A DNA stretch of 45,791 bases from a virus: IMG/VR virus record IMGVR_UViG_3300029857_000010, one strand, 5' to 3'. A program made the translations under genes and the position numbers. Positions 22,990 through 45,791 of this stretch are shown here, one piece after another. The notes beneath the pieces were generated by a model. It saw nothing but the letters and a program-made list of their open reading frames with translations. It did no database searches and had not been told where the DNA came from. The stretch's first letter is position 1, and every line of letters starts with the position of its first letter.

Positions 22990-23018
22990 ATTATATAACC
23001 ATAGCCGCAAAAAATCAA
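22990..23018 (-). promoter_or_regulatory. sigma-A-type promoter for the HTH gene (TTGATT-17-TATAAT on the minus strand)
   Basis: -10 at complement(22990..22995), -35 at complement(23013..23018), 17-nt spacer. Confidence 0.5.
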
Positions 23019-23051
23019 ATCAAAAAAGTTAAAAAATAATCAAAAAAGGTA

Positions 23052-23080
23052 TTGACAAGCTAATCAAAGGCGTTTATAAT
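23052..23080 (+). promoter_or_regulatory. perfect-consensus sigma-A promoter (TTGACA-17-TATAAT) driving the plus-strand accessory operon
   Basis: TTGACA at 23052-23057, TATAAT at 23075-23080, exact 17-nt spacer. Repeated (T)AATCAAA elements at about 23013, 23037, 23061 and 23103. Confidence 0.7.
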
Positions 23081-23142
23081 ATACTCAACAAAGCAAATAA
23101 ACTAATCAAAACCGAAATTGCTACATTTAGGAGGAACTAAAA

Positions 23143-23364
23143 ATGGCTACACAAAAAGAACAAACACAAGACGCTAAAATGATTCAGTTGGCGCTTTACC
23201 GTGAATACGGCTTCCAGCCGTGCTTGAAGGACATCGAAATTCTGGAAAGCGTCGAAAACCCGGACTTCCCCTGGCATCTTGAAAGGGCCTACGTTGAAAT
23301 CAAAGGCCACTTTTACACCATCTATCAAAACGAATTTGGCGGGTTGACCGTACAAAAATATTAA
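23143..23364 (+). CDS. hypothetical protein, 73 aa
   Basis: First ORF of the operon, SD TAGGAGGA. Confidence 0.55.
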   Translation: MATQKEQTQDAKMIQLALYREYGFQPCLKDIEILESVENPDFPWHLERAYVEIKGHFYTIYQNEFGGLTVQKY

Positions 23365-23452
23365 AGCTGACGGCGGCCCCGTTGGGGGCCGTAAAGCTGC
23401 CAGGCAGAAGGTCCGAAGCCCTAGCCAACAGCCGAAAGGAGAGAATAAGAAA

Positions 23453-24397
23453 ATGACTTTTGAAAAGTATAATGCGAACCCCGAAAATAAGAATATCGGT
23501 GATTGCTCAATTAGAGCTATCTGCACGGCAACCCCGTTAACCTACCAGCAGGCTAAAAAGCTGCTGGAAACAAAGGTATTTGAAAGCGGCGCTGCATGGA
23601 ACACCGTGAAGAACATCACCGCCGCCCTGGCTGACCTGGGAATTGAAGTTAAAGCCGCCAGCCGCGAAACAGTCAACAGCTTTACAAAGCATTGCGATAC
23701 CGGCGCCAGCTACGTTGTTTTTGTAGCAAAGCACGCCGTAGCCGTTGTTAATGGCGTTATCTATGATACATGGGACAGCAGCCGCCGTTTTGTAAAGCTG
23801 GTTGCCAAAGTCAGCCGTGAAAAATTTGACGAATTGAAAGCCAAATACAACCCGGAACCTAAAAAGGAGGAAAAGAAAATGGACTGGAAAAAGATTTTTG
23901 CCGCTTGCGAAACAATCGAGGAACTGAAAAAGGCGTTTAAAAAAGCCTGCATGACTTGCCACCCCGACAAGGGAGGCACGGCCGCCGAATTTAAGGCAAT
24001 GAGCGCAGCGCACGACAAGCGCGCCGCCGAACTTGCCGAAAGTGAAAGCCGCCAGGAGTGGCAGCGCAACAAGAAAGCGGACGGCACTTATAAAACAGCC
24101 GCCGAAATCCTGGCCGAACAGGCGGAATTTGCCGAAATCCTGGCCGTGCTGATGGGCTTGAAGGGCCTTGAAATTGAAATCTGCGGCAGCTGGTTATGGA
24201 TAGGCGGCGAAACGAAAGAGAACAAAGACGCCTTGAAAGGCGCCGGCTGCCGTTGGGCCAGCAAGAAAAAATTATGGTATTGGCATGCTGGCGAATGGGT
24301 GAAGAAGGTCCGCCGCGCGTTGACCATGGACGAAATCCGCGACCTGCACGGCAGCGAGTTGTTGAAATACCGCCCGGAAACGCCCTTGTTACAATAG
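23453..24397 (+). CDS. J-domain (DnaJ-like, HPD motif) protein with an N-terminal putative Cys/His peptidase-like domain, 314 aa
   Basis: J-domain signature IEELKKAFKKACMTCHPDKGGTAAEFKAMSAAHDKRA, with the HPD codons at 23960-23968. N-terminus has …NIGDCSIRAI… and …KHAVAVVNGVIYDTWD…. An in-frame internal SD AAAGGAGG plus ATG lies at 23862-23881. Confidence 0.65.
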   Translation: MTFEKYNANPENKNIGDCSIRAICTATPLTYQQAKKLLETKVFESGAAWNTVKNITAALADLGIEVKAASRETVNSFTKHCDTGASYVVFVAKHAVAVVNGVIYDTWDSSRRFVKLVAKVSREKFDELKAKYNPEPKKEEKKMDWKKIFAACETIEELKKAFKKACMTCHPDKGGTAAEFKAMSAAHDKRAAELAESESRQEWQRNKKADGTYKTAAEILAEQAEFAEILAVLMGLKGLEIEICGSWLWIGGETKENKDALKGAGCRWASKKKLWYWHAGEWVKKVRRALTMDEIRDLHGSELLKYRPETPLLQ

Positions 24398-24478
24398 CCG
24401 AAACGCCGCCCCGTGCGGCGTATACCGGGGACCGGCCGCCCCGGTACTGATGAGGCAGGCCAAAGGAAGGAGATAAGA

Positions 24479-24709
24479 ATGAAAATAGCTATTATAAGCA
24501 AATTGACACCCGAGCATCCGGCGTGGAAGCACGGGAAGCGCTTAGACGTAAAAATCTTTACGCAGCTTTACCCCGGCGGCCCGCAATATTATTGCGGAAA
24601 CGGCAAATATTGTGAAGATATGGAAGCGGTAAAAGCTTTTATCGCAGAAGAAGCGCCGGACAAAATCAGCGACGAAAGGACAATAGGAGGCTTGAAAAAT
24701 GAAGCGTGA
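24479..24709 (+). CDS. hypothetical protein, 76 aa
   Basis: ORF with SD AAGGAAGGAG. The track's longer start at 24413 has no SD. Confidence 0.5.
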   Translation: MKIAIISKLTPEHPAWKHGKRLDVKIFTQLYPGGPQYYCGNGKYCEDMEAVKAFIAEEAPDKISDERTIGGLKNEA

Positions 24710-24878
24710 AGAAGCGTTAAAATTGTTGCTGAAGATTGAAGAATTCCGGCAGCAACCGGCAATGCATAAGGCGGAACATGATTTTACGTGTCGCATTATC
24801 GCCGCTATGGTTGCGGAAGCAGGCGGCTTTAAAAGCCGGAACGAATGGACCGCAGAAATCAAGGAGGCTTTAAAGTGA
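24699..24878 (+). CDS. small hypothetical protein, 59 aa
   Basis: ATG with SD AGGAGG 8 nt upstream. Overlaps the upstream gene by 11 nt. Below the ORF-track size cutoff. Confidence 0.4.
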   Translation: MKREEALKLLLKIEEFRQQPAMHKAEHDFTCRIIAAMVAEAGGFKSRNEWTAEIKEALK

Positions 24879-25030
24879 AGCGAAAAGAGCGCAAACATCA
24901 ATATTTAAAGCTTGCCAAATCTTTACGCAGTTTGTCACACGCTAAAGGCGGCGTTAAAAAATTAACATACGCCCAGCAGTGCGCGTATTGGGACAGCGTG
25001 AGCTTGCTATATTTGTTCAATCTTTTGTAA
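24875..25030 (+). CDS. small basic hypothetical protein, 51 aa, GTG start
   Basis: GTG preceded by AAGGAGG (24861-24867). Overlaps the previous stop. Confidence 0.3.
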   Translation: MKRKERKHQYLKLAKSLRSLSHAKGGVKKLTYAQQCAYWDSVSLLYLFNLL

Positions 25031-25110
25031 AGGACCCACTACACCGGCAGGAATGCCGCTGCCGGTGTAGAATATTAAAGGCAGAAGCGATTTTTTAGGA
25101 GGAATTAACC

Positions 25111-25620
25111 ATGTTGAAAGAAGTTAAAAACAACGTTTATAACGCCCTTTTTGTAGCCGCCGATGAAGAAGGCCAGCGCTACGCCGCTTTTGAATCCGAC
25201 TGGAACGGCGAATATTGGGAAGCGACCGCCTGCACGGAAAGCGGCGAGCTTATCAAAGGCGAAACCACTAAGCTTTACCCCGTTCACGTTTACCACGCTG
25301 GAACCGACGAATACGAAGAAGTGGGCTACGATGAAGAAGCGCCCCGCGTTCTGCTGCCTGGCTGGCGCGACTACCAGAAGTGCGGCTATAACGAAAGCTA
25401 TTCCCTGGCCCCCGTCGCTTACAGTGAAGCGAGTGACCGCGTTTACATGATGCTGCCGGAAGGCGCTAGCGTTTACGCTGATGACGCAGGCTGCCCGGTG
25501 ATTGATTTTGACGGCTTTAAACAAGCCGACGTAATTAACCAATATGACGGCAGCAGCTGCCGCCCGTATATCATCGGCAATGACCGCCGCCGCGCATATC
25601 TGGAAGTTGTCGAACTATAA
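25111..25620 (+). CDS. acidic hypothetical protein, 169 aa
   Basis: SD TAGGAGGA. Strongly acidic composition. CRPYI motif shared with the 26068 gene. Confidence 0.55.
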   Translation: MLKEVKNNVYNALFVAADEEGQRYAAFESDWNGEYWEATACTESGELIKGETTKLYPVHVYHAGTDEYEEVGYDEEAPRVLLPGWRDYQKCGYNESYSLAPVAYSEASDRVYMMLPEGASVYADDAGCPVIDFDGFKQADVINQYDGSSCRPYIIGNDRRRAYLEVVEL

Positions 25621-25674
25621 CCCCGAATCACCCGCCCGGCGCAAGCCGGGCTATTATCGAAAGGAAGCGAAAAC

Positions 25675-26055
25675 ATGAAAAATTTTGTCGGCTTGAAAGC
25701 CGAAATCAAAAAGCAGAAAGCTATCCGCGCCCGGCTTGACAATGAGCGCGGCCGCCAAACTGTTAATTGGAAAGCCGCAACTTTTCGCCTGGCGTTGCTG
25801 AACCATTGGAAGCGTCAAGGCGTAGGGCTGCCGGACAACTACAGACAGCTTTGGAACCCGCCCACTAATTGGACCGCGCGCACGTTGAAAGAACGCACGC
25901 CGCTGCACGTTTGGGAAGTTGACGCATTGCGCGCGGGATTGGTTGCAGAAGCGTGCAAAAAATTTAAAAACGCAACGTCCCCGCTTATTCGTTGGATGAT
26001 AAGAGATGAGCTGGCGGCAAAAGTTACCGAATTGTACCGCCGCCCGGTATTTTAA
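25675..26055 (+). CDS. basic Trp-rich hypothetical protein, 126 aa
   Basis: ORF with SD AAAGGAAG. Confidence 0.5.
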   Translation: MKNFVGLKAEIKKQKAIRARLDNERGRQTVNWKAATFRLALLNHWKRQGVGLPDNYRQLWNPPTNWTARTLKERTPLHVWEVDALRAGLVAEACKKFKNATSPLIRWMIRDELAAKVTELYRRPVF

Positions 26056-26067
26056 GGAGGAAGAATA

Positions 26068-26436
26068 ATGGAAACTAAAACCTTTTACGCACTGAAAAGA
26101 AATGCTATCTGGCTGCCGCGCCGCAACCACGGCAAGGACTACAAAACCTACACCCCGTTAATCAGCCTGGAAGCGCAGGATGATTGTGAGCCCGTCGAGC
26201 TACAGCGCAGCGAAAGCCTGGAAGAACTCAAAACTGTTTTGAACAGCGACGCTTGCCGCCCCTACATCGACAACAAGAGCGGCAGCGATACTCTCTATGT
26301 AGAATACTACGTAGAGGAAGCGGAATACACCCGTGACGATGAAAGCGAGGACTGGGAGTTTTCCGCCGGTTCGATGTACTATGAGCGTGAAGCGGATAAC
26401 ACGCCGATGAGCGACAGGAAGAAGGCTAGTTTATGA
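26068..26436 (+). CDS. acidic hypothetical protein, 122 aa
   Basis: SD TAAGGAGGAAG. Acidic composition. CRPYI motif. Confidence 0.55.
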   Translation: METKTFYALKRNAIWLPRRNHGKDYKTYTPLISLEAQDDCEPVELQRSESLEELKTVLNSDACRPYIDNKSGSDTLYVEYYVEEAEYTRDDESEDWEFSAGSMYYEREADNTPMSDRKKASL

Positions 26437-26654
26437 AAGAGAAAAAAATGTGTAAATTAAAAATCGTGGGACTGGCGGAAAGAGAACGCCGCTTGTTTAA
26501 AATGTACCTTTATGAAATCGGGTACACGCTAGAAGATGTTGGGACTATTGAGGCCGTGCGGGAAGTGGAAGTTAAAAAGCTCAAAAAGTTTGTTGAACTT
26601 CTGAACGGCAACATCGAAATTTTAGACACATGGGAAGTTGCCAACTATTTCTAA
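26433..26654 (+). CDS. hypothetical protein, 73 aa
   Basis: ATGA start/stop overlap with the upstream gene. Last gene before the terminator. Confidence 0.5.
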   Translation: MKEKKMCKLKIVGLAERERRLFKMYLYEIGYTLEDVGTIEAVREVEVKKLKKFVELLNGNIEILDTWEVANYF

Positions 26655-26660
26655 AACACA

Positions 26661-26691
26661 AGCCCCAGGGCAAACGCCCTGGGGCTTTTCT
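26661..26691 (+). terminator. rho-independent terminator of the plus-strand operon
   Basis: Perfect 10-bp stem AGCCCCAGGG/CCCTGGGGCT, 6-nt loop, then a TTTTCT run. Confidence 0.75.
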
Positions 26692-26722
26692 ATATCCTGC
26701 AAACGTGAGCAGGCTATATATT

Positions 26723-26751
26723 TTTGAAGTCGAAATGTTTTACAGGTATAA
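26723..26751 (+). promoter_or_regulatory. orphan sigma-A-type promoter (TTGAAG-17-TATAAT)
   Basis: -35 at 26723-26728, -10 at 26746-26751, 17-nt spacer. No ORF with an SD downstream before the terminator. Confidence 0.5.
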
Positions 26752-26757
26752 TCACTA

Positions 26758-26850
26758 GGGCTGCCATGATTGGAATGCGTGGCGGCCCTTTTCCGTGCGT
26801 GCAGCGCATACTTTAGGGAAGCAAAAAGCCCGGCAGCGCCGGGCTTTTCT
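26758..26850 (+). ncRNA. candidate small noncoding RNA of about 90 nt (promoter to intrinsic terminator, no ORF)
   Basis: Bounded by the promoter at 26723-26751 and the terminator hairpin at 26826-26846. Only a 16-codon ORF lacking an SD. Confidence 0.35.
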
Positions 26851-26962
26851 TTTGGTGCGATTTTGTAAAGAAAATCAACAATATTTCAATCCGTGCCAGC
26901 TTTACGCCTTTAGAGCTGAACCGACAAGCACAATACTCAAAAGGCGCTTGCGCTTATCGACA
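26822..26962 (-). ncRNA. candidate small noncoding RNA of about 140 nt on the minus strand
   Basis: Minus-strand promoter TTGCTA-17-TATAAT (complement 26968..26996) reads into the bidirectional terminator. No ATG-initiated ORF. Confidence 0.3.
26826..26850. terminator. bidirectional rho-independent terminator
   Basis: 9-bp stem AAGCCCGGC/GCCGGGCTT with a 3-nt loop, flanked by an A-run upstream and a T-run downstream. Confidence 0.7.
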
Positions 26963-26967
26963 AGGCT

Positions 26968-26996
26968 ATTATACCACGGTACCAAACCAATAGCAA
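26968..26996 (-). promoter_or_regulatory. orphan sigma-A-type promoter on the minus strand
   Basis: -10 TATAAT at complement(26968..26973), -35 TTGCTA at complement(26991..26996). Confidence 0.4.
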
Positions 26997-27040
26997 GCGT
27001 TTTCTTAACGCGTGGAAGCGACAGCACCGCGCGCCTGCCT

Positions 27041-37933: not shown

Positions 37934-38953
37934 ATGAAATTACCTAACGGCTATGGCTCTGTTACGAAGCTGACCGGGAACCGGCGGCGGCCGTATATGG
38001 TCCGCATTACAACGGGCTTTACCGATGAAGGTCGCCAGCTTATGAAAATACTAGGCTACTATGCAAAGCGCACGGAAGCCCTTAATGCCCTGGCTGAATA
38101 CAATCAATCACCCTATGATGTTGAAAGCGTAGGCTTGACGTTTGCCCAGGTACACGAGAGATGGGAAGCCGCAACCTACGTTGACGGCAAAGAGCAATCT
38201 AACCAATATAAGGCAGCATATAAGCGCTGCGCGCCACTATGGGATATACCGTTCAAAGATATTAAGACTGCGCAATTTCAGCAAGTCATAAATGACTGCG
38301 ACAAAGGCTACGCTACCAAGAAGGCAATCCGAATCGTATGTAATCTGATGGCCAAATATGCGCTTGCTAATGATATTATAGTAAAAAATTATGTTGAGCT
38401 TACTAGCCTACCGCCCCAGGTTGAAAGCAGAATACACAATCCGCTTACTAAAAAGGAGCTTGCTATATTATGGGAAAACAGCAAGGATATAAAAGTGCAA
38501 GCCGTGCTTATCCTCTGTTATACCGGCATGCGCCCCACCGAGCTAGTGAAGGTTGAGAAGGCGAACGTCGACTTTGAAAATAAATTCTTCGTTGGCGGCA
38601 TGAAAACTGCGGCAGGCCGCGGCAGAAGAATTCCTATTGCTGATAAAATATTCGACTTCTTCAAGGATGCTTGTGAACGCAGCACCGGCGAATATATCTT
38701 TTCTGATGAACGGGGCAAGAATATATCCTATGACGCATACCGCAGCAGATATTGGGAACCGGTAATGAATATGTTTAAGATGGACCACTTGCCCGGTGAC
38801 GGCCGCCACACTTGCGCAAGCCTGCTTGATGATAAAGACGTAAATGTAAAAATCAAGAAGCTAATTCTGGGGCACGCCAGCTCCGATGTAACGGAAAGGG
38901 TTTACACTCATAAGACGTTGGAACAACTATTAGAGGCTATAAATTTAATATAG
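37934..38953 (+). CDS. int: tyrosine recombinase / integrase with AP2-like arm-binding N-terminus
   Basis: N-terminus MKLPNGYGSVTKLTGNRRRPYMVRIT is the AP2-like arm-binding domain signature. Catalytic region has TGMRPTEL and LGHASSDVTERVYTH (H-x-x-R…Y). Confidence 0.8.
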   Translation: MKLPNGYGSVTKLTGNRRRPYMVRITTGFTDEGRQLMKILGYYAKRTEALNALAEYNQSPYDVESVGLTFAQVHERWEAATYVDGKEQSNQYKAAYKRCAPLWDIPFKDIKTAQFQQVINDCDKGYATKKAIRIVCNLMAKYALANDIIVKNYVELTSLPPQVESRIHNPLTKKELAILWENSKDIKVQAVLILCYTGMRPTELVKVEKANVDFENKFFVGGMKTAAGRGRRIPIADKIFDFFKDACERSTGEYIFSDERGKNISYDAYRSRYWEPVMNMFKMDHLPGDGRHTCASLLDDKDVNVKIKKLILGHASSDVTERVYTHKTLEQLLEAINLI

Positions 38954-39200
38954 TTTGTTACATACGTGTTACATATGTGTTACATACCTGTTACATACGT
39001 AGCTTATTTTCTATGAGCTGTGGACACTTTTTGAAAATAACGGAAGCAAAGAAAAAGCCAGCAACCTGCATGGTTACGGGCTTTTCTTGCGATTTGTGAT
39101 TGATTGAGATAGCCTTCTCTATTAACGTTTGGTAAATTGAGCACCCTTATTTTAAGCCATTCTTTACGCTATTTGTTACATACCTGTCACATACGATATG
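38954..39200. other. putative attP region with 11-bp arm-type direct repeats (TGTTACATAC-like)
   Basis: Four tandem 11-bp copies at 38954-38997 and two more at 39174-39195, flanking about 175 bp of noncoding sequence. They lie immediately 3' of int. Confidence 0.55.
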
Positions 39201-39237
39201 TACTTTATATGTGCTCATATCGCTTTAAGGTTTACAG

Positions 39238-39687
39238 TTAGGCTTCCATCTGCGCCAGCCAAGCGTCAAGAACTTTTCCTTCTGATGCGTCCGGGTCGTT
39301 TATATACGCTTTTGCCATACGCACGTAGTTGTTAGTGTCGCTTCCAAGAATTTCAGCAAAATCACTATGCAGCATATTCATAACATAGTACCAATCAGCT
39401 TTACAACGTATTCCCTGTTGGTCTGCAAATTGGCTAGTCTGTTCAAACGTCCAATGTTCGCCACACGTACCGTCAATGTTCTTCATTTTGGAAACTGCCT
39501 TTTTTGCAAGCTCTTCGTCAAAATGCGGGCCGTATGCTACACAATGCAGTTTATATGCAGTATCCCAAAATAACCGAGGGCAACGGCCGCGCACTTCTTC
39601 TAACGCTTCACAAACTATTTCTTCCATCTCTTCTATCTTTACTGGGTCAGCGCTTACCTTCTCCCAATATTTCTTTAGTTTATGCAT
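39238..39687 (-). CDS. hypothetical protein, 149 aa, last gene before attP
   Basis: ORF at the terminal moron position. Confidence 0.45.
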   Translation of the reverse strand: MHKLKKYWEKVSADPVKIEEMEEIVCEALEEVRGRCPRLFWDTAYKLHCVAYGPHFDEELAKKAVSKMKNIDGTCGEHWTFEQTSQFADQQGIRCKADWYYVMNMLHSDFAEILGSDTNNYVRMAKAYINDPDASEGKVLDAWLAQMEA

Positions 39688-39699
39688 AACGTCGCCCCC

Positions 39700-40122
39700 T
39701 TACGCCATTTTTACAACGCTCAAAGATACATTGCTGATAGTGCCTGCTGCCGTAGCCTGCACCTGCAACGCTGCATTATTATCAATCACACAGCAACTAG
39801 GCAATACTCTAAGCAGTGTAGCAAAGGAGATATTATAAGTATCACCTGTAGCACCGGTTACTGTTGCTTCTGCTCCCGGTACTGCTACACCATTACGAAG
39901 AAGATTTAAACCTATATCGCCTGCCGCAGTCGGGGTAATATCAGCGTTCAAAGTCACAAGGTAAAGTCCCTGGATAAGGTTAACGCTTGTACTTCCTGCC
40001 GTATGCTTAATAGATACACCAGTCAAAAGATTGTTAGTAGGGAAACCGACAAAGCCGTTCGCTGTTACAGTCTGCGCCGCCGTTGCTACCGTTGTTAATG
40101 CGGATTTCTGATTGCAAATCAT
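39700..40122 (-). CDS. BclA C-terminal-domain / ExsF-BxpB-like (C1q/TNF-fold) protein, 140 aa
   Basis: Segment GLYLVTLNADITPTAAGDIGLNLLRNGVAVPGAEAT…SLSVVKMA resembles BclA-C GFYKITVIANTATASVLGGLTIQVNGVPVPGTGSS…SIIIEKVA. Confidence 0.5.
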   Translation of the reverse strand: MICNQKSALTTVATAAQTVTANGFVGFPTNNLLTGVSIKHTAGSTSVNLIQGLYLVTLNADITPTAAGDIGLNLLRNGVAVPGAEATVTGATGDTYNISFATLLRVLPSCCVIDNNAALQVQATAAGTISNVSLSVVKMA

Positions 40123-40203
40123 TTGTTTTCACCTCTTTATTAAAGCAATAGGGACGGCTTGCACCGTCCCTTGCAGTGCAGTTAATGCACATAACTTATT
40201 ATT

Positions 40204-40917
40204 TTAGCCTGCGTTATAAGCACAGCCACAAGCACCGGCTACGTTAGCAGCAATGCTTTGATACGGGCTATTCGTAATATAAGCCGGTTGCGGATAAGGT
40301 CTTAATGTACCGATAAGATTTGCACTCTGCGCCTGTTGAGATAATTGGAAGTTTGCAGTCTGCAAGTCGCGGTCACGGTCTGCCAGCTTGTCGCGCAAGT
40401 CTTGGATTTGGTTGGCAATCAGAACTGCTCTGGTCTTTTCACCGTCCTCTTTTACTGCGGTGACAATATCGCAGGTATTACGCGCGTTCTCATAGCGCAC
40501 TGCGTCAATATTTCTGTTAGTTTCGCAGCAGCATTGCTGTTGAGCAAAACGATTTTCGGAAAGCTGACTGCCTAACTGATAGCCGGTCTGCATAATGTCA
40601 CGTTGTACACCATTAAAACCATTCAGCATAGTGCTGTTCTGAGCGTAGAAGCCGTCACACAAACCATTTTGAACGCCACGAATACCTTCTTTAATATCCT
40701 GCATAGAAAATTGGTCTGCGATTTGGTCACGTGTCATACTGCCATTAGCAAAGATTTCTGCGCCCATATTGCCGCGGTTATTCCAATTACCGCCCCAGCC
40801 GCCCATAAGAGCGAAAAGAACGATAATCCACATAAACCACATACCGCCGCCCCAGCAGTCGCCGTAGTTGTTGTTTCTGTTCATGTCCATTACCGGAACA
40901 ATGTTTGCACCTTCCAT
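40204..40917 (-). CDS. membrane/coiled-coil protein with a YjcZ-like N-terminal motif, 237 aa
   Basis: N-terminus GDCWGGGMWFMWIIVLFALMGGWGG resembles the YjcZ-family sporulation protein motif GGGFALIVVLFILLIIVG. Remainder is helical/coiled-coil. Confidence 0.4.
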   Translation of the reverse strand: MEGANIVPVMDMNRNNNYGDCWGGGMWFMWIIVLFALMGGWGGNWNNRGNMGAEIFANGSMTRDQIADQFSMQDIKEGIRGVQNGLCDGFYAQNSTMLNGFNGVQRDIMQTGYQLGSQLSENRFAQQQCCCETNRNIDAVRYENARNTCDIVTAVKEDGEKTRAVLIANQIQDLRDKLADRDRDLQTANFQLSQQAQSANLIGTLRPYPQPAYITNSPYQSIAANVAGACGCAYNAG

Positions 40918-40964
40918 GATAAAATTTCACCTCCAGGAATTATATGTAAAGCTCATTGCGCGCA

Positions 40965-41189
40965 TTAGAGCTTTAAACCGAATTGACTTAAAAACTGAGT
41001 AAACTGTTCGTCACTCATGCCGCGTTGCCTTGCAAGGTTACGTACAGTTTCTTTTAACTGCACTTCGTTCTTGCCTTGCCCCATTTGCATCGCGCGGCTC
41101 ATCATAGGATTCTGCTGTGCTAATTGTGTAAGCATCATCATAGGATTACCGCTGTTCTGTAACATTGCCATTATCTGCATCGGGTTCAT
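40965..41189 (-). CDS. Met/Gln-rich small protein, 74 aa
   Basis: SD GGAGGG within the 3' end of the upstream gene. Low-complexity M/Q/P-rich N-terminus. Confidence 0.4.
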   Translation of the reverse strand: MNPMQIMAMLQNSGNPMMMLTQLAQQNPMMSRAMQMGQGKNEVQLKETVRNLARQRGMSDEQFTQFLSQFGLKL

Positions 41190-41577
41190 GGTTCATCCCT
41201 CCAATCTGCTTTTCCAATCTGTCCACACGTTCTACTAATCTATCTACAATGTTTTGTTCAGCATACGCAGGCTGCTTCTGCGAATTGTTGATTTGGTATA
41301 CTCTGAAAATCGGCAAGCCGTCCAAGCCTATAAGCTTTTCATAAATCTTGCCTTCGGCAGGGCAAGGGAAGAAAGTGCTCGTTCCGTCCAAGTCAATTTG
41401 AGCTGCCTTTGCTTCATCCATGCTGGTAACAATTCTGCCTTTCAATGCCATAGGCATAGGCTGCTGCATAGTTGGCTGGTACATCTGCTGCTGTTGTTGC
41501 TGCAAATAATTCAGCCGTTGCTGCATCTGCGGTGTTGCGCCCATATAAGGGTTATATTGTCCGTACATACTTATCAC
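41146..41577 (-). CDS. Gln-rich protein, 143 aa
   Basis: ORF with a poly-Q stretch (LQQQQQQMYQP). Confidence 0.4.
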   Translation of the reverse strand: MISMYGQYNPYMGATPQMQQRLNYLQQQQQQMYQPTMQQPMPMALKGRIVTSMDEAKAAQIDLDGTSTFFPCPAEGKIYEKLIGLDGLPIFRVYQINNSQKQPAYAEQNIVDRLVERVDRLEKQIGGMNHEPDADNGNVTEQR

Positions 41578-41666
41578 CTCACTTATAGTTTAGCTGTTTT
41601 TTAGCAAACCAATCCCTACAAATTCCCCATAAAAAAAGAACCGCCATAAAAGGCGGCTCGTTGCAT

Positions 41667-41906
41667 TTAAAGGAATGATAATACATTTGTTATTTGTTTA
41701 TACGCAGTATTCAATTCCTTATCCACTGTTTTGACAGATACATTCAATTGCATAGCTATCTGATAGTTAGTCAAGCCTTTTACAAATTTCAGCTCGCAAA
41801 TTTCTACCTGCCGTGGTGTTATCTTTGCTTCTTCCAATACCGCGCTGAAAGAACGCCGCGTTGATGTTTGTAGCCAGTCACGCGTGTTCTTCAGCAGTGT
41901 GTCCAT
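41667..41906 (-). CDS. sigma-70 region-4-like HTH protein, 79 aa, a candidate late-gene or moron regulator
   Basis: ITPRQVEICELKFVKGLTNYQIAMQLNVSVKTVDKELNTAYKQI matches the sigma region-4 / LuxR-type HTH pattern. Confidence 0.5.
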   Translation of the reverse strand: MDTLLKNTRDWLQTSTRRSFSAVLEEAKITPRQVEICELKFVKGLTNYQIAMQLNVSVKTVDKELNTAYKQITNVLSFL

Positions 41907-41913
41907 TTTATTG

Positions 41914-42102
41914 TCACCTACCTAAATAAATAAAAGCTATAGCTGTTGCCGCCCATCCAAACAAAGCGGCACAGATTATCTTTCTTTGGAAAGCAATAGT
42001 TTCTACATAACCTTTTAATAACATTGTAATAATGCCTGCTGGTATTTGTTCCTTTTCATCCATCGTAACACCATCCAATAATTTTATTTTGCAGCTGCGC
42101 AA
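41914..42102 (-). CDS. small membrane protein, 62 aa or shorter
   Basis: C-terminal TM segment ICAALFGWAATAIAFIYLG. Confidence 0.35.
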   Translation of the reverse strand: MRSCKIKLLDGVTMDEKEQIPAGIITMLLKGYVETIAFQRKIICAALFGWAATAIAFIYLGR

Positions 42103-42551
42103 AGCAAGAAGAATAACGCAGTACCTGCATAAATATTCCGCTGATACTTAATTCTGTTCGTTCTCTTCCGGTCGTATTCCATTTGCTCTATCAACGTCTC
42201 GTATAATTCCTCGCTGCGCTTCAACGATTCCTTTGCATTCACTAATGAGCGCTTGGAGTTCGTCAGCGCTTCTTGCGTTAGAGTGAGCTGCTTCTTCGCT
42301 TCGCTTAATTGCGTCAACAGAACTGCTGACGTGTTCTTCTGCTGTTTCAATTTCTCGTCTGCCAGATTCAATTTCGCTTCCAGCAGATTCGTTTGATTTT
42401 TGAATTGATTCCATTGTTCGATTGACATTGTTATCTGCTTGGGTGCCGCTTCCGCCGTGCCAACGCCAGTACACGTCATTACAGATAAGCAGAAGGCCAG
42501 CAACAATAAGACTAATCTTAACGGCTCTATCAATCTTGCGTCTTGTTTCAT
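42084..42551 (-). CDS. coiled-coil protein with N-terminal signal/TM and C-terminal TM, 155 aa, a possible lysis accessory
   Basis: SD GAGGT. Chosen over the overlapping alternative frame 42148..42615. Confidence 0.4.
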   Translation of the reverse strand: MKQDARLIEPLRLVLLLLAFCLSVMTCTGVGTAEAAPKQITMSIEQWNQFKNQTNLLEAKLNLADEKLKQQKNTSAVLLTQLSEAKKQLTLTQEALTNSKRSLVNAKESLKRSEELYETLIEQMEYDRKRTNRIKYQRNIYAGTALFFLLCAAAK

Positions 42552-42849: not shown

Positions 42850-43470
42850 TTATCTTCCATTACCAGCAAAGCCATACGCAGGTACGCCATACGGTGTTGT
42901 TAAGTCAATGCCAGCAACATACTGATACGTAGCTTCCGCTCTATTGGCGTAACCTGCTCTATACATCTCACCAACATCGGCAGCAATCCAATAGTAATTC
43001 TTAAACAGCTTGTAAAGTGCCTCCAGACTACGCAGGTTGACGCGCTCAAAACGATTCTCCAGGAAACGCTTTACAACATAAGTGCTAGTCGGACACCACA
43101 TGCCAGCATAAATAAGGCAGCGTGTATCATCCAACGTCGGCACCTGTTGAAGCACCTCGACATATTGCAGGCAGTCACGTGACAACTGTTCTAACTGCGC
43201 CTGCTGTCCTGCGTCGCTTCTTAACAACTCTTTAAGCATCGGCAGTTCGCCGCTTGCCTTAATATCAATATAGGTTCTGCCAATAAATTCTTCACCGCCG
43301 GGAATAGCTCTCAAAAGCTCATCGGCTCTGTTGCCCTCCCATTGCGACACACCGATTGAAGGATAATTATAAGCCGTAGACTTTGCTACGCTGTCATAAC
43401 CGCCTTCAATGCCTGTTGCGATAATGCCTTTTGCGATTTCTCTCGCAAGGTTTTTGTTCCAATCACTCAT
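42850..43470 (-). CDS. putative endolysin / peptidoglycan hydrolase (GH108-like lysozyme motif EGGY…), 206 aa
   Basis: Immediately downstream of the holin-like gene. N-terminal IEGGYDSVAKS…IGVSQW resembles the GH108 EGG…GIT motif. Start ATG (MSDW) has SD GAGGAG; the track start at 43485 is GTG. Confidence 0.4.
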   Translation of the reverse strand: MSDWNKNLAREIAKGIIATGIEGGYDSVAKSTAYNYPSIGVSQWEGNRADELLRAIPGGEEFIGRTYIDIKASGELPMLKELLRSDAGQQAQLEQLSRDCLQYVEVLQQVPTLDDTRCLIYAGMWCPTSTYVVKRFLENRFERVNLRSLEALYKLFKNYYWIAADVGEMYRAGYANRAEATYQYVAGIDLTTPYGVPAYGFAGNGR

Positions 43471-43738
43471 CGTTCCGCTCCTCACTTTTCACTTTAAACA
43501 TTCTTGTTTCAATAGCCTTGTTGCCTAACTGTACAAGCAGCAGCGTAACCATACCAAGTGTACAACTCTCGTAGCCGCTCCAGGTTTTGGCAAAAAAAGC
43601 AAGCCATAATGTAACTAATACCCAAACGGCAAAGCCTATAACAGCGCAGATTCTGCCTACGCTGTAAGCGTTATCGTTCTTTTTCAACATGTTAATCAAT
43701 TTACGCATGACACTTACACTCCTTGCATTTTTCATCAT
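43463..43738 (-). CDS. holin-like protein with two hydrophobic segments, 91 aa
   Basis: Hydrophobic stretches ICAVIGFAVWVLVTLWLAFFA and TLGMVTLLLVQLG, charged C-terminus. Position upstream of the lysin candidate. Confidence 0.5.
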   Translation of the reverse strand: MMKNARSVSVMRKLINMLKKNDNAYSVGRICAVIGFAVWVLVTLWLAFFAKTWSGYESCTLGMVTLLLVQLGNKAIETRMFKVKSEERNDE

Positions 43739-44057
43739 GTCCTTTTAAATCATAGTTAGGCAGTTCATTTAATTGCTCCATTAAACTATCAATGACGCCA
43801 TTATCTCCAAGCGCCTCGTAACTCCGGTAGCAGGCGTCGATGCTTTCTTTTGCGTAGATTGGTATCCAGCCTTTATCCTGGACATAGTGATTATAAGCCT
43901 GGATGATTCTATCGCGGAGCAACGCTTGCAAGCCTGCCTTTAGTGCGTCATTTTCTTTTTTCTTTGTATGATATAACGCAAAGATATAAGAGATAACAGC
44001 ACCAGCAATAATATTTATTACAGTTTGTACAGTTGATTCAATCATAAAACACCTCAT
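43701..44057 (-). CDS. membrane protein with a single N-terminal TM (holin-like or lysis regulator), 118 aa
   Basis: TM segment VINIIAGAVISYIFALY, cysteine-rich C-terminus (CKECKCHA). Confidence 0.4.
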   Translation of the reverse strand: MRCFMIESTVQTVINIIAGAVISYIFALYHTKKKENDALKAGLQALLRDRIIQAYNHYVQDKGWIPIYAKESIDACYRSYEALGDNGVIDSLMEQLNELPNYDLKGHDEKCKECKCHA

Positions 44058-44081: not shown

Positions 44082-44582
44082 TTAAACTTCTAATACAACA
44101 TTTTCAACTTCTGCTTTAGTTATAGCAGTTTCTACTTTCTCCTTAGCTTTTCTATAAGCTGTGTGGAGCTTGTCGCTTCTCAACGCCACCTGTGCAATAA
44201 TGCCACGCAGGTCAGATGCAGTTACTTTTACATCTTTATTATCTGCGGTAGTCCATATGAGGGTGACGGAAGCACCTAAGACTTCAAGGGCAACAATAGC
44301 TGCACTAATTCTATCCCTAGCTTTGTCATCATAATCAAAAGAGTAACCTTGGTATATGATAGGCTCAACCTCAGCTTTATCACGCTGATATTTAAGCTCC
44401 GTAATCTTGCGTTGCTTAATCACTTCCAAAGGTTCTTCCTCATGCGTAACAGTAACATCTAATTCTGCCAAGGCTTCCTCAGAGATAGAGAGAGGTATAA
44501 AGATACCTTCCTGCCCTAAGGCTTCTGACAAAGGGTAGATGTGAGTATATGTTTTGTCTTTGTACGTATATTTTGTTTGCAT
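44082..44582 (-). CDS. DUF4376-like tail-fibre-associated protein, 166 aa from the SD-supported start
   Basis: SD AAAGGAGG precedes the ATG (MQTKYTYK…). Lies downstream of the tail-fibre gene. Confidence 0.4.
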   Translation of the reverse strand: MQTKYTYKDKTYTHIYPLSEALGQEGIFIPLSISEEALAELDVTVTHEEEPLEVIKQRKITELKYQRDKAEVEPIIYQGYSFDYDDKARDRISAAIVALEVLGASVTLIWTTADNKDVKVTASDLRGIIAQVALRSDKLHTAYRKAKEKVETAITKAEVENVVLEV

Positions 44583-44598
44583 TTTGTTCCTCCTTTGC

Positions 44599-44991
44599 TT
44601 AATAATCTTCAACTGTGGGTGTCATCGCATTTATTGCTTTACCCCACGAGAAAGTAACGCCAGATGTATACAGACAGTTAAAATGCAATGTATAGGTTTT
44701 ATTTGGTGTTACACCTACAATGGAATCAATATTTTCATGGTCTACGTTGACACCACCATCATCAGCATCTGAGTAGCCTTCACCCCATTTATTATTGCTT
44801 GTTGTATTTTTAATAACAGCATAATAGGTAGCTGATGGCTCATTCTCAGCAAAATCAACCTCTGCAAACACTTTGATTCTTTTAATACCTAGCGGAACAG
44901 TAAAAGTTATTGTTTTATCATTTACTTCATCATAATTCCAATGCTTGTTACCATCCTTAATATTTACTTCACCAAAGAACAACCTTCTCAT
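44599..44991 (-). CDS. hypothetical tail-associated protein, 130 aa
   Basis: ORF directly after the tail-fibre stop, beta-rich. Confidence 0.4.
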   Translation of the reverse strand: MRRLFFGEVNIKDGNKHWNYDEVNDKTITFTVPLGIKRIKVFAEVDFAENEPSATYYAVIKNTTSNNKWGEGYSDADDGGVNVDHENIDSIVGVTPNKTYTLHFNCLYTSGVTFSWGKAINAMTPTVEDY

Positions 44992-45791
44992 TATGCACCA
45001 CTTCCTAACTTATGAGCCTGTACAATGCTTACAATACCATTAGGGTTCTTTATCATCCAGACAGTCAGAAGCGTACCAGAGCCGGAAATAGCAATATCGC
45101 TTGCGCTACCTATATATGTCATAGTACCTGCACCACTGATAGTCAGAGCATGGTCAGCATCAGCAGTAAAGTATGCAGAGAATACAATGGATTCATACGT
45201 ACCAAGCAACATAGCAAAATTAGAGAGATTAAGAGTAAAATCACCATTTGTTGTATACCACATTGTATCAGTTACCGGTGTATCAGTAGTGCCTTCTACA
45301 TAATAGCCGGTATGGCAGGCACGGAAGGTCTTTGTGTTATAAAACTCCTGCACTGCCGTCCATGTATTTTCAGAGGATGTACTTACACCACCAGTAGCCG
45401 TAATAGTTACATTGCCACTCGCATCGGGTGCTGTGCCATTGACAGATTTAACCACACCACTAATATCAGTTTTCTTAGCGTAAGTGGATGTGATTACATT
45501 GCCATCACCATCATGGGTTGCTGCCCTAGCCGTGCCACTATAATTCACAGCGTTGATTGAACCAACAAATTGTGTACCTTCACGCCACCTTATATTAGTA
45601 GCTCCACCCGATAAAGCAAAACCAGAGAGAACATCTGCGATATTCATTTTGTCAGCTAAGGCACTGTATATAACCTTGTTCTGTACAGGGTTAGTCGAAG
45701 TGCTGGACAATGAGCTATCCACAGTAATATTAGTAATATCTGTTTTCTTAGCATAGGTATCAACAATGACATTACCTGCACCATCATGAAG
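44991..45791 (-). CDS. tail fibre protein, C-terminal portion; continuous with 1..1488 across the circular junction (45693-45791 duplicates 1-99)
   Basis: Reverse frame is open from 45791 down to the stop at 44991. Protein reads …VDSSLSSTSTNPVQNKV…, identical to the end of the 1..1488 segment. Confidence 0.8.
   Translation of the reverse strand, partial: LHDGAGNVIVDTYAKKTDITNITVDSSLSSTSTNPVQNKVIYSALADKMNIADVLSGFALSGGATNIRWREGTQFVGSINAVNYSGTARAATHDGDGNVITSTYAKKTDISGVVKSVNGTAPDASGNVTITATGGVSTSSENTWTAVQEFYNTKTFRACHTGYYVEGTTDTPVTDTMWYTTNGDFTLNLSNFAMLLGTYESIVFSAYFTADADHALTISGAGTMTYIGSASDIAISGSGTLLTVWMIKNPNGIVSIVQAHKLGSGA
45693..45791. repeat. exact 99-bp duplicate of positions 1-99: circular-closure overlap
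   Basis: Identical sequence at both window ends. Lies inside the tail-fibre ORF. Confidence 0.9.

What the first reader, a model, noticed from the sequence alone, without database searches (positions are those of the whole stretch)
39238..41577. Terminal moron-like cluster of homologues of spore-surface and sporulation proteins next to attP
Between the lysis genes and attP lie a standalone BclA-C/ExsF-BxpB-like C1q/TNF-fold protein (39700-40122), a 237-aa protein whose N-terminus resembles the YjcZ sporulation-protein motif (GGGMWFMWIIVLFALMGG), two Met/Gln-rich low-complexity proteins reminiscent of spore-coat proteins, and a 149-aa unknown. Together with the collagen-like tail fibre, this suggests a phage that carries, or mimics, exosporium and sporulation-associated proteins of a spore-forming host. 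This may be lysogenic conversion of spore surface or germination properties, or reuse of these proteins as virion or adsorption components.
Basis: inference. Interest (0 to 1): 0.6.

Follow-up and report, generated by a model that had tools for sequence, protein, structure and literature searches.

The report
Swappable phage accessory cassette, not spore genes
The five genes next to attP are a widespread, uncharacterised, swappable phage accessory cassette (a membrane-anchored coiled-coil protein paired with a BclA/C1q-fold protein plus helpers) in a prophage of the non-spore-forming gut bacterium Phascolarctobacterium succinatutens, so the proposed link to spores does not hold.

Summary
All five ORFs are real and conserved. 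They are the last genes before attR of a prophage of Phascolarctobacterium succinatutens, a Gram-negative non-spore-former. The 140-aa protein does have a BclA/C1q/TNF jelly-roll fold (AF2 pLDDT 92; BclA TM 0.77; profile hit to the F-BclA head, 6e-6). It belongs to a large family of stand-alone ~140-aa proteins. The 237-aa protein is not YjcZ. The two Met/Gln-rich proteins match no spore-coat family. The 149-aa protein is DUF7841.

Together they form a module with a fixed gene order, A(140)-B(74)-C(237)-D(140), plus DUF7841. It occurs in hundreds of gut phage contigs, in Clostridium perfringens phages, in Butyrivibrio phage Ceridwen and, as C plus a β-rich neighbour, in a crAss-like phage. It usually follows the tail-fibre and lysis genes.

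Near-identical relatives of this phage carry a non-homologous but architecturally similar cassette in place of A-D, or carry deletions of it. The module is therefore dispensable and exchangeable. C homologues that lack the C-terminal Cys motif also lack a D gene, which suggests that C and D pair.

The function is unknown. My best guess, at low confidence, is a membrane-anchored phage conflict system (superinfection exclusion or abortive infection) with D as the specificity element.

The parts
41667..41906 (-). H: 79-aa sigma-70 region-4 / LuxR(GerE)-type HTH protein immediately upstream of the cassette
   Evidence: Pfam GerE 2.6e-6, Sigma70_r4_2 4.7e-6, Phage_antitermQ 9e-4. TIGR02937 2.7e-9. 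It precedes A in 12 non-redundant lineages. It lies outside the swapped segment: 75% identical in relatives that carry the alternative cassette.
41638..41659 (-). Terminator-like hairpin (8-bp stem, 6 GC) followed by T7, between H and A
   Evidence: sequence read. No convincing sigma-70 promoter lies between it and A.
41146..41568 (-). A: 140-aa soluble protein. It has a Q/M/P/Y-rich N-terminus, a small conserved domain (KGRxVTSxDEAKAAQIDLDG...IYxK...G...Y) and a C-terminal coiled-coil helix.
   Evidence: phrog_21718 4.5e-11; 25 of 31 diverse homologues hit the same PHROG and no Pfam family. Alignment A3. Start codon. No PDB sequence relative apart from generic coiled coils.
40965..41189 (-). 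B: 74-aa Met/Gln-rich helical protein with NPM(Q/M) repeats and a conserved C-terminus (...RNLAxQxGM...QFLSQFGLKL). Its start overlaps the 3' end of A by 44 nt.
   Evidence: No Pfam, PHROG or NCBIfam family. Conserved family, alignment A8. The A/B overlap of 4-47 nt is conserved in other loci. No meaningful PDB hit.
40204..40917 (-). C: 237-aa single-pass membrane protein. It has an acidic N-tail (IVPVMDMN motif), a Gly/Trp-flanked hydrophobic helix, a helical region with an invariant CCC, a ~90-residue continuous helix, a Pro-rich RPxPxPAY motif and a C-terminal CxC tail.
   Evidence: phrog_16490 2e-25. 6222 homologous 90%-identity clusters, none named and none with a Pfam domain. Alignment A2. 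AF2 monomer has low confidence (pLDDT 47) but shows one long helix at 116-205. Hydropathy and charge survey. No YjcZ hit.
40150..40171 (-). GC-rich hairpin (9-bp stem) between C and D
   Evidence: It has a weak T tract and its role is unknown.
39700..40122 (-). D: 140-aa stand-alone BclA_C/C1q/TNF-type jelly-roll protein with a Cys at position 3 and a conserved PSCC loop. It has no collagen repeats, no signal peptide and no exosporium leader.
   Evidence: PF18573 7e-5, 23 bits, below the gathering score of 38. phrog_20016 2.5e-8. The family profile hits F-BclA CTD 9h38 at 5.8e-6 and BclA at 0.012 (identity of 9h38 from PMC12357932). AF2 pLDDT 91.9. Foldseek: BclA 3twi TM 0.77, F-BclA, ExsFA, C1q, TNF and phage fibre knobs. 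1661 representative clusters.
39238..39687 (-). G: 149-aa DUF7841 protein, Cys/His-containing and predicted helical. It is the last gene of the integrated prophage.
   Evidence: PF25223 1.7e-26, 93 bits against a cut-off of 25. It lies either after D or before H/A in other loci. No PDB relative. No paper mentions DUF7841.
38954..39237 (.). attP region. The phage/host crossover is at about 39121 (core ...ACCAAACGTTAAT). Arm-type repeats GTATGTAACA lie on both sides.
   Evidence: Sequence read. Junction mapped against integrated copies L131 and L137. Host flank identified as P. succinatutens.
37934..38953 (+). Tyrosine-type integrase (context; convergent with the cassette)
   Evidence: ORF. Used to retrieve 32 close relatives.

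Best explanation
The block is one copy of a self-contained, horizontally exchangeable phage accessory cassette. It is not a set of spore-protein homologues.

Shown:
- The gene order A-B-C-D, with DUF7841 (G) nearby, recurs in many unrelated phages.
- In close relatives of this phage the A-D segment is replaced by a non-homologous cassette with a similar architecture, or is partly deleted.
- In the integrated prophage it is the last block before attR.
- The host is P. succinatutens, which does not form spores.

Inferred architecture:
- C is an oligomeric single-pass membrane protein with a ~13-nm coiled-coil stalk. Its C-terminal Cys motif holds D, a trimeric C1q/BclA-type β-sandwich that is exchangeable for other β-sandwich proteins.
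- A and B are co-translated soluble partners or chaperones of C.
- None of A, B, D or G has an export signal, and the N-tail of C is acidic. The whole assembly therefore probably sits on the cytoplasmic face of the membrane.

Inferred function (weakest step): a phage-encoded conflict system, meaning superinfection exclusion or an abortive-infection-like defence against other phages. D would be the recognition element and the Gly-flanked transmembrane helix of C the membrane-acting element.
For: Module conservation:
- An HMM survey of 97 loci shows the same order and strand, (G)(H)A-B-C-D(G/E/F).
- The module is in C. perfringens phages and Dulem viruses, and in the cultured Butyrivibrio phage Ceridwen. 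A crAss-like phage carries only C plus a β-rich neighbour.
- C has 6222 homologous clusters. More than 466 IMG/VR stretches encode a relative.

Exchangeable and dispensable:
- The comparison set is relatives whose integrase is 86-99% identical.
- Six carry A'/B'/C'/D1' between conserved H (75% identity) and G (69% identity).
- C' again has an N-terminal transmembrane helix, a coiled coil and a Cys tail. hhalign probability against A, B and C is below 2%.
- L109 lacks G, D, C and most of B. Integrated prophage L134 lacks B and C.

C-D pairing:
- All 29 non-redundant C homologues with a Cys-containing tail have a D-type gene downstream. All 4 without such a tail lack one.
- D co-swaps with A-C.
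- The D slot holds unrelated β-proteins, D1 versus D2/D3.

Other points:
- A/B translational overlap is conserved.
- Topology hints: the C N-tail has 80 D/E against 27 K/R across 32 homologues, and the C' flank after the helix is VRGDRDR.
- The cassette lies 117 nt from attR, after a terminator-like hairpin.
- Host identification.
Against: - There is no functional evidence of any kind. PADLOC has no match for A, B, C, D or G, so this is not a known defence system.
- The module also occurs in phages isolated as lytic (Ceridwen) and, as C plus a β-rich neighbour, in a crAss-like phage. There a lysogen-protecting role is less obvious.
- It most often follows tail-fibre and lysis genes, which would also fit a late lytic-cycle role.
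- No sigma-70-like promoter was found in front of A, so expression in lysogens is unproven.
- The C monomer model has low confidence. C's topology, its oligomeric state and the C-D contact are all inferences.
- The Cys-tail/D correlation rests on about two to three independent lineages that lack D.
Confidence: 0.38

Rival explanations
1. Late lytic-cycle accessory of lysis or release. C would be a membrane-disrupting or membrane-bridging protein (spanin- or holin-accessory-like) that works with the upstream holin and endolysin genes. A, B, D and G would be its regulators.
For: In 29 diverse loci the genes just upstream are lysis enzymes or holins (Amidase_2/3, GH25, M15_3, C39_2, r1t holin) and tail-fibre genes. 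In Ceridwen the module directly follows the endolysin. C has an N-terminal transmembrane helix, a long coiled coil and a Pro-rich, Cys-containing end, which superficially resembles an i-spanin.
Against: Otherwise intact relatives, including an integrated prophage, lack C. The cassette is replaced by non-homologous genes in near-identical backbones. It occurs in phages of both monoderm hosts (C. perfringens, Butyrivibrio) and diderm hosts. There is no lipoprotein partner. The window already has a separate candidate with a signal peptide, a coiled coil and a C-terminal transmembrane helix at 42084-42551. A terminator-like hairpin separates the cassette from the upstream genes.
Confidence: 0.15
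2. Virion or adsorption component. C and D would form an accessory fibre (a coiled-coil shaft with an exchangeable C1q-like knob) that decorates the particle. A and B would be assembly chaperones.
For: Foldseek also matches phage fibre and knob domains: cyanophage A4, A-1(L) CBD, PRD1 P5 and the phi812 knob. phrog_30509 'collagen like minor tail' matches over its C-terminal part at 8e-3. Tail-fibre and baseplate genes are frequent upstream neighbours. Exchangeable heads are typical of receptor-binding proteins.
Against: C carries a strongly hydrophobic transmembrane-type helix. The module is found in ~38-kb C. perfringens phages, in 100-120-kb contigs and (C only) in a crAss-like phage, so no common docking partner is evident. 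In C. perfringens phages it sits among early genes (antirepressor, Gam/Erf). In the window it lies after the lysis region and a terminator. Deletion variants exist.
Confidence: 0.12
3. Lysogenic conversion of the cell surface. C would anchor D on the outside of the lysogen as an adhesin or a receptor mask, analogous to BclA on a stalk or to type II membrane TNF ligands.
For: BclA, C1q and TNF heads are extracellular recognition domains carried on stalks (established knowledge of those families). The position at the prophage end is typical of conversion genes. The C-D coupling holds.
Against: D, A, B and G have no signal peptide or lipobox. The N-tail of C is acidic and the flank after the helix is neutral or basic, which favours N-out/C-in. 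Cys-rich motifs are numerous in proteins of strict anaerobes.
Confidence: 0.1
4. One reading: homologues or mimics of exosporium and sporulation proteins that alter the spore surface or germination of a spore-forming host.
For: D's closest solved structures are BclA, F-BclA and ExsFA from Bacillus spores. Some phages that carry the module infect spore-formers such as C. perfringens.
Against: The host of this phage is P. succinatutens, a non-spore-former. The module is also in a Butyrivibrio phage, and a crAss-like phage carries C. There are no YjcZ, spore-coat or exosporium-leader hits. D is a free-standing domain from a large phage-associated family.
Confidence: 0.03

Closest known systems
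BclA C-terminal domain / F-BclA CTD / ExsFA(BxpB) (Pfam PF18573; C1q/TNF superfamily), Bacillus exosporium and endospore-appendage proteins
   Same: Protein D has the same trimer-type jelly-roll fold. Foldseek: BclA TM 0.77 at 21% identity, F-BclA TM 0.76, ExsFA TM 0.69. The family profile aligns end to end with the F-BclA head at E 5.8e-6.
   Different: D is free-standing. It has no collagen-like stalk and no exosporium leader. It scores below the Pfam gathering cut-off (23 against 38 bits). It is encoded by phages, is always paired with the membrane protein C, and here sits in a host that makes no spores.
Type II membrane TNF-family ligands and C1q (stalk plus trimeric head)
   Same: The overall logic is a membrane- or stalk-borne trimeric C1q/TNF head. 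The termini of D would face the end of the C stalk.
   Different: Here the stalk and the head are separate polypeptides. The link is only inferred, from the co-occurrence of the Cys tail of C with a D gene. The orientation is probably cytoplasmic rather than extracellular. No homology beyond the fold is claimed.
Prophage-encoded exclusion and abortive-infection systems that use a membrane protein (lambda RexAB; lactococcal Sie2009; S. thermophilus Ltp). From my own knowledge.
   Same: An accessory, dispensable, prophage-borne membrane protein with a soluble partner. Strong allelic turnover between related phages.
   Different: There is no sequence or profile similarity (PADLOC negative). Classical Sie genes sit in the lysogeny module, not after the lysis genes. 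The function here is untested.
Zorya ZorA (a membrane-anchored protein with a long cytoplasmic coiled-coil tail that signals to soluble effectors). From my own knowledge.
   Same: The concept of a membrane anchor carrying a long intracellular coiled coil that couples events at the envelope to cytoplasmic partners.
   Different: C has one transmembrane helix, no MotA-like domain, no ZorB-D partners and no homology.
Two-component spanins (Rz/Rz1)
   Same: An N-terminal transmembrane helix, a helical coiled-coil domain, Cys residues and a Pro-rich segment.
   Different: There is no outer-membrane lipoprotein partner. The module is present in phages of monoderm hosts, is dispensable in close relatives, and lies outside the lysis cassette.

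Membership tests
BclA_C (PF18573) / C1q-TNF superfamily (protein D, 39700-40122) | Sequence match to PF18573 at or above the gathering score | tested here: not met
   23.1 bits against a cut-off of 38, E 7e-5, although it covers 8-127 of 128 profile positions. About a third of the 94 close homologues carry a precomputed PF18573 hit.
BclA_C (PF18573) / C1q-TNF superfamily (protein D, 39700-40122) | Ten-strand jelly-roll fold superposable on BclA, C1q and TNF heads | tested here: met
   AF2 pLDDT 91.9, all-β. Foldseek: 3twi E 6e-11 TM 0.77; 9h38 TM 0.76; 7r5i TM 0.69; C1q and TNF TM 0.7-0.8. Profile against PDB: 9h38 at 5.8e-6.
BclA_C (PF18573) / C1q-TNF superfamily (protein D, 39700-40122) | Homotrimer | not testable with these tools
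   Only monomer prediction was available.
BclA-type exosporium glycoprotein | N-terminal exosporium leader plus a collagen-like GXY region in front of the head | tested here: not met
   No NCBIfam hit of any kind for D, including the exosporium-leader model. No GXY run in D; the only real GXY array in the window is in the tail fibre at 349-456.
YjcZ family sporulation protein (TIGR01732) (protein C, 40204-40917) | Match to the TIGR01732 profile; a small (tens of residues) Gly-rich hydrophobic peptide | tested here: not met
   No NCBIfam hit at E<=1. C is 237 aa and belongs to phrog_16490, with a large conserved C-terminal helical region.
Spore-coat protein families (proteins A and B) | Profile similarity to any coat family (GerQ, Cot families and so on) | tested here: not met
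   Protein A (41146-41577) has 0 Pfam and 0 NCBIfam families. Protein B has only sub-threshold unrelated hits. None of 31 diverse A homologues hits a coat family.
DUF7841 (PF25223) (protein G, 39238-39687) | Match above the gathering score | tested here: met
   93.1 bits against 25.2, E 1.7e-26. The same domain was called independently in L004 and L131.
Moron / prophage accessory cassette | Presence or absence, or replacement, among otherwise closely related phages | tested here: met
   Replacement by a non-homologous cassette in 6 relatives, plus deletions in L109 and L134.
Moron / prophage accessory cassette | Own promoter and terminator; deviant base composition | tested here: inconclusive
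   Terminator-like hairpins lie before A and after G. There is no clear sigma-70 promoter. GC is 0.43-0.45, no different from the rest of the genome.
Known anti-phage defence systems (PADLOC-DB v2) | Profile match of any component | tested here: not met
   0 families for A, B, C, D and G.
Two-component spanin | An i-spanin with a cognate outer-membrane lipoprotein gene, inside the lysis cassette, and required in diderm hosts only | tested here: not met
   No lipobox gene is embedded or adjacent. Homologues occur in phages of monoderm hosts. The module is dispensable.

The most novel reading that the evidence does not exclude
A-B-C-D(+DUF7841) is a previously undescribed, very widespread family of phage-borne conflict systems in gut Firmicutes and Bacteroidota phages. 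In it a membrane-anchored coiled-coil protein carries an exchangeable C1q/TNF-fold (or other β-sandwich) sensor on the cytoplasmic side, and it triggers membrane damage or blocks entry when a rival phage infects. This would be the first assigned function for a bacterial-virus C1q/TNF-like stand-alone domain, and an example of whole-cassette allelic replacement at a fixed prophage hotspot.
Probability: 0.25. Interest if true: 0.75.

Novelty: new variant of a known kind. Interest (0 to 1): 0.5.

Why it matters
If the module is a conflict or exclusion system, it would add a large family to the phage-borne defence repertoire of human-gut bacteria: thousands of homologues in gut viromes, all currently labelled 'hypothetical'. 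It would also give the phage-encoded BclA/C1q-like stand-alone proteins a role. Even without a function, the result corrects a tempting mis-annotation ('spore-surface mimicry'). It fixes the host of this phage group as P. succinatutens and maps its attachment site. It also defines a tractable unit, with cultured handles in Butyrivibrio phage Ceridwen and the C. perfringens phages, and with natural deletion and replacement alleles for experiments.

Tried and rejected
- YjcZ and spore-coat membership: no profile hits.
- A known defence system: PADLOC negative.
- Fold assignment for C: the AF2 monomer model had pLDDT 47, so no fold search was run on it. Profile against PDB gave only apolipophorin-like noise.
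- PDB profile searches: A gave generic coiled coils, B a de novo designed protein and SurA noise, and G designed helical repeats. None was informative.
- B as an STI1/Met-rich chaperone: this was only my impression from the NPM repeats and no tool supported it.
- D2/D3 (the proteins in the D slot of other phages) as divergent C1q folds: hhalign probability 0.3% and no PDB hit. They are left as 'unrelated β-rich'.
- G related to the ferritin-like F protein of other module variants: hhalign probability 0.2%.
- F is ferritin-like (4e-5). The alignment columns I checked by eye at the ExxH position are not conserved, and F is absent from this window.
- The A'/B'/C' cassette as diverged homologues of A/B/C: hhalign probability below 2%.
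- Host inference from MAG labels: the Oscillospiraceae, Ruminococcus, Segatella and Duodenibacillus contigs are short or phage-only. They were rejected in favour of the exact host-flank matches.
- Literature: nothing on DUF7841. I did not open the Ceridwen paper.
- Verification of the upstream 'endolysin' failed.
Full report
**What is there.** The window is a circular assembly with an exact 99-nt terminal overlap, giving a 45,692-bp genome. It is a temperate phage with almost all genes on the - strand. The finding covers five consecutive - strand genes. I call them:
- A: 41146-41568. The listed GTG at 41577 is less likely than the ATG at 41568, which has a GAGGTGA ribosome-binding site. An independent gene caller chose the same start.
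- B: 40965-41189.
- C: 40204-40917.
- D: 39700-40122.
- G: 39238-39687.

Upstream lies H (41667-41906), a 79-aa sigma-70-region-4 / LuxR-type HTH protein. H is followed by a terminator-like hairpin plus T7 at 41659-41638. Downstream lie attP and a convergent integrase at 37934-38953. attP carries repeated GTATGTAACA arm-type motifs.

**Host and position.** Contigs that encode the identical G protein include integrated copies (L131-L137, L140). There G is followed by bacterial genes: GGT, AcpS, YjeF, a GerMN-domain protein, TsaE/B/D, RimI, a PdtaS-like kinase and GroES. Several of these proteins are exact matches to Phascolarctobacterium succinatutens proteins, for example GroES of strain CAG:287 and GGT WP_304161422. 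Identity between phage and integrated copies ends at about window 39121, which is 117 nt after the G stop codon. The cluster is therefore the last block before attR of a P. succinatutens prophage. The genus is Gram-negative and non-spore-forming (PMC7494834). That removes the premise of a spore-forming host.

**Checking each similarity claim.**
- *D.* It scores weakly but over its full length against Pfam BclA_C (7e-5, 23 bits, below the gathering score of 38).
  - A profile of 32 homologues hits the crystal structure 9h38 at 5.8e-6 and BclA at 0.012. The PDB sequence file labels 9h38 'FliK', but it is the C1q-like head of the F-ENA tip fibrillum F-BclA (PMC12357932).
  - The AlphaFold model is confident (pLDDT 91.9).
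  - It superposes on BclA (TM 0.77), F-BclA, ExsFA, C1q and TNF ligands, and also on phage fibre knobs. The fold claim is correct.
  - D has no collagen repeats, no exosporium leader and no signal peptide.
  - An exhaustive profile search finds 1661 representative clusters, 572 of them at E<=1e-10. The best 150 are almost all free-standing proteins of 130-160 aa.
- *C.* It has the quoted Gly-flanked hydrophobic motif, but it gives no YjcZ/TIGR01732 hit. It belongs to phrog_16490. That family has 6222 clusters at 90% identity, none named and none with a Pfam domain.
- *A and B.* They are indeed rich in Met and Gln. They match no spore-coat family. A is phrog_21718.
- *G.* It is Pfam DUF7841 (1.7e-26). 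No paper mentions that name.

**A conserved module.**
- A, B and C lie in the same order in C. perfringens phages XP41-N3 and 17DYC and in Dulem virus 39.
- I built HMMs for each component and scanned 79 IMG/VR loci recovered with a C profile, plus the other loci already fetched. Well over 466 IMG/VR stretches encode a relative of C.
- The order (G)(H)-A-B-C-D-(G/E/F) on one strand is the rule.
- The slot after C holds either a D1 protein (BclA_C-like, as here) or an unrelated small β-rich protein with a Cys-rich N-terminus (D2/D3). hhalign probability of D2 against D1 is 0.3%.
- Other variants add a small transmembrane-plus-coil protein (E) and a degenerate ferritin-like protein (F).
- The module is present in the cultured Butyrivibrio phage Ceridwen, directly after its endolysin.
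- The crAss-like phage cr116_1 carries only C plus a β-rich protein in the D slot.
- It also occurs in 100-120-kb viral contigs.
- Across 29 non-redundant loci, the upstream neighbours are mostly tail-fibre and baseplate proteins, cell-wall hydrolases and holins, and sigma-r4-like regulators.

**Anatomy and inferred couplings.**
- C has, in order: an acidic N-tail with a conserved VPVMD motif; one strongly hydrophobic helix flanked by Gly/Trp-rich segments; a helical region with an invariant CCC; a continuous helix of about 90 residues; an RPxPxPAY motif; and a C-terminal CxC/Gly tail.
- The monomer model has low confidence (pLDDT 47), as expected for an extended oligomeric coiled coil. I did not use it for fold search.
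- Among 33 non-redundant C homologues, all 29 with Cys in the tail are followed by a D-type gene. The 4 whose tail has lost the CxC motif (L013, L068, L071, L082) have no D-type gene. I read this as evidence that the tail of C and D work together physically.
- The B start overlaps the A end by 4-47 nt in every lineage examined, which suggests coupled translation.
- A, B, D and G have no export signals.
- The N-tail of C is net acidic (80 D/E against 27 K/R over 32 homologues), and the flank after the helix is neutral. I therefore lean towards N-out/C-in, with the whole assembly on the cytoplasmic face. This is an inference only.

**The cassette is exchangeable and dispensable.** I fetched 32 relatives through the integrase (86-99% identity). 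Three states appear:
- The same G-D-C-B-A-H arrangement as in the window.
- Six contigs in which the segment from inside G to the end of H (window ~39630-41667) is replaced.
  - The replacement encodes A' (126 aa), B' (123 aa), C' (181 aa), a 77-aa transmembrane protein and D1' (152 aa, 37% identical to D).
  - C' again has an N-terminal transmembrane helix, a coiled coil and a Cys-containing tail.
  - G and H stay 69% and 75% identical.
  - A', B' and C' are not detectably homologous to A, B and C (hhalign probability below 2%).
- L109, which has a clean deletion of window 39129-41039 (G, D, C and most of B).

In addition, the integrated prophage L134 lacks B and C, and the small contig L013 has A-B-C directly abutting attP and integrase, with no D or G. 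The block is thus a dispensable accessory cassette that turns over as a unit at a fixed hotspot.

**Interpretation.** These facts argue against an essential virion or lysis component and against anything specific to spores. They fit a host- or competitor-directed accessory system.

My best-supported model has two parts. The architectural part is a membrane-anchored coiled-coil stalk (C) carrying an exchangeable β-sandwich head (D, here C1q/BclA-type), with two co-translated partners (A, B) and DUF7841. The functional part is a phage conflict system, either superinfection exclusion or abortive infection, with D as the specificity element and the Gly-flanked helix of C acting on the membrane.

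My rough confidence is:
- about 0.85 that this is an exchangeable accessory cassette unrelated to spores;
- about 0.6 for C-D pairing;
- about 0.3 for the conflict function.

PADLOC has no match, no promoter is evident, and the module also occurs in phages isolated as lytic, so the function remains open.

Rivals are a lysis or release accessory, an accessory virion fibre, and surface conversion of the lysogen. Each is weighed in the rival section.

**Comparison with known systems.** D is a structural member of the C1q/TNF/BclA_C superfamily, but it is not a BclA-type exosporium protein. C resembles i-spanins and the cytoplasmic coiled-coil tail of Zorya ZorA only in general design (my own knowledge). 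No membership is claimed. To my knowledge, and within the libraries searched, the module as such has not been described. Its families appear only as 'unknown function' PHROGs and one DUF.

Noticed in passing
window 1-99 and 45693-45791: There is an exact 99-nt terminal overlap. The window is a circular assembly of 45,692 bp. The apparent 33-aa duplication in the tail fibre when the ends are joined naively is an artefact of this overlap.
   Followed up: yes
window ~1600-1 continuing at 45791-44991 (- strand): A collagen-like tail fibre of ~760 aa wraps the junction. It has an Ala-rich coiled coil, 12 GXY triplets (349-456) and its own C-terminal β-rich domain. A DUF4376 protein follows (44082-44612 region, by comparison with L131).
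   Followed up: partly
window 42084-42551 (- strand): A 155-aa protein (136 aa in an independent gene call) has an N-terminal signal-like hydrophobic segment ending in ...VMTC, a long coiled coil and a C-terminal transmembrane helix. The architecture is like a unimolecular spanin, which fits the diderm host. A 59%-identical homologue lies in the P. succinatutens CAG:287 prophage.
   Followed up: partly
window 42850-43485 (- strand): The 211-aa protein in the position of the endolysin, just downstream of two small transmembrane proteins at 43463-43738 and 43701-44057, has no Pfam, PHROG, NCBIfam, PDB-sequence or phage-database match. It may be a novel cell-wall hydrolase, or it may not be a lysin at all.
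   Followed up: partly
window 38955-38998 and 39170-39200; crossover ~39121: attP carries at least six copies of (G)TATGTAAC/GA arm-type repeats on both sides of the core (...ACCAAACGTTAAT). attB lies upstream of a 392-aa gene and the GGT gene of P. succinatutens. One host variant (L137) lacks those two genes.
   Followed up: partly
window 1628-9064 (- strand): A 2478-aa protein carries an LPD3 domain (a 'polyvalent protein' type) at the end of the tail module. The unrelated Phascolarctobacterium prophage L004 has a 3603-aa counterpart with SLT, PBECR1, helicase, methyltransferase and LPD38 domains.
   Followed up: no
window 23000-27000: There is a strand-switch island with + strand ORFs. GC and AT skew are inverted and GC rises to 0.52, inside the otherwise - strand genome.
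   Followed up: no
L105 7774-9709 (- strand) and L107, L110, L117, L129, L130: An alternative cassette sits at the same hotspot: a 126-aa Q-rich protein, a 123-aa protein, a 181-aa protein with a transmembrane helix, a coiled coil and a Cys tail, a 77-aa transmembrane protein, and a 152-aa BclA_C-like protein. It is analogous in architecture to A-D but not detectably homologous.
   Followed up: partly
L001 7667-8194, L006 6401-7180, L008 6380-7378, L093 8385-8993: Some module variants end with a ferritin-like four-helix protein (profile against archaeal and bacterial ferritins 4e-5). By my reading of the alignment, its ferroxidase motif is not conserved. They also carry a ~70-aa protein with an N-terminal hydrophobic segment and a coiled coil (BhlA-like architecture).
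   Followed up: partly
L007 4375-4722 (crAss-like phage cr116_1): A 115-aa protein directly upstream of the C homologue contains an HExxH motif (IAHECLHV) and may be a small metalloprotease. The C homologue there is annotated 'spike protein/glycoprotein', probably only because of its coiled coil.
   Followed up: no
PDB entry 9h38 in the sequence library: The chain is labelled 'Flagellar hook-length control protein FliK'. According to the publication it is the F-BclA C-terminal domain. The label could mislead automated annotation.
   Followed up: yes
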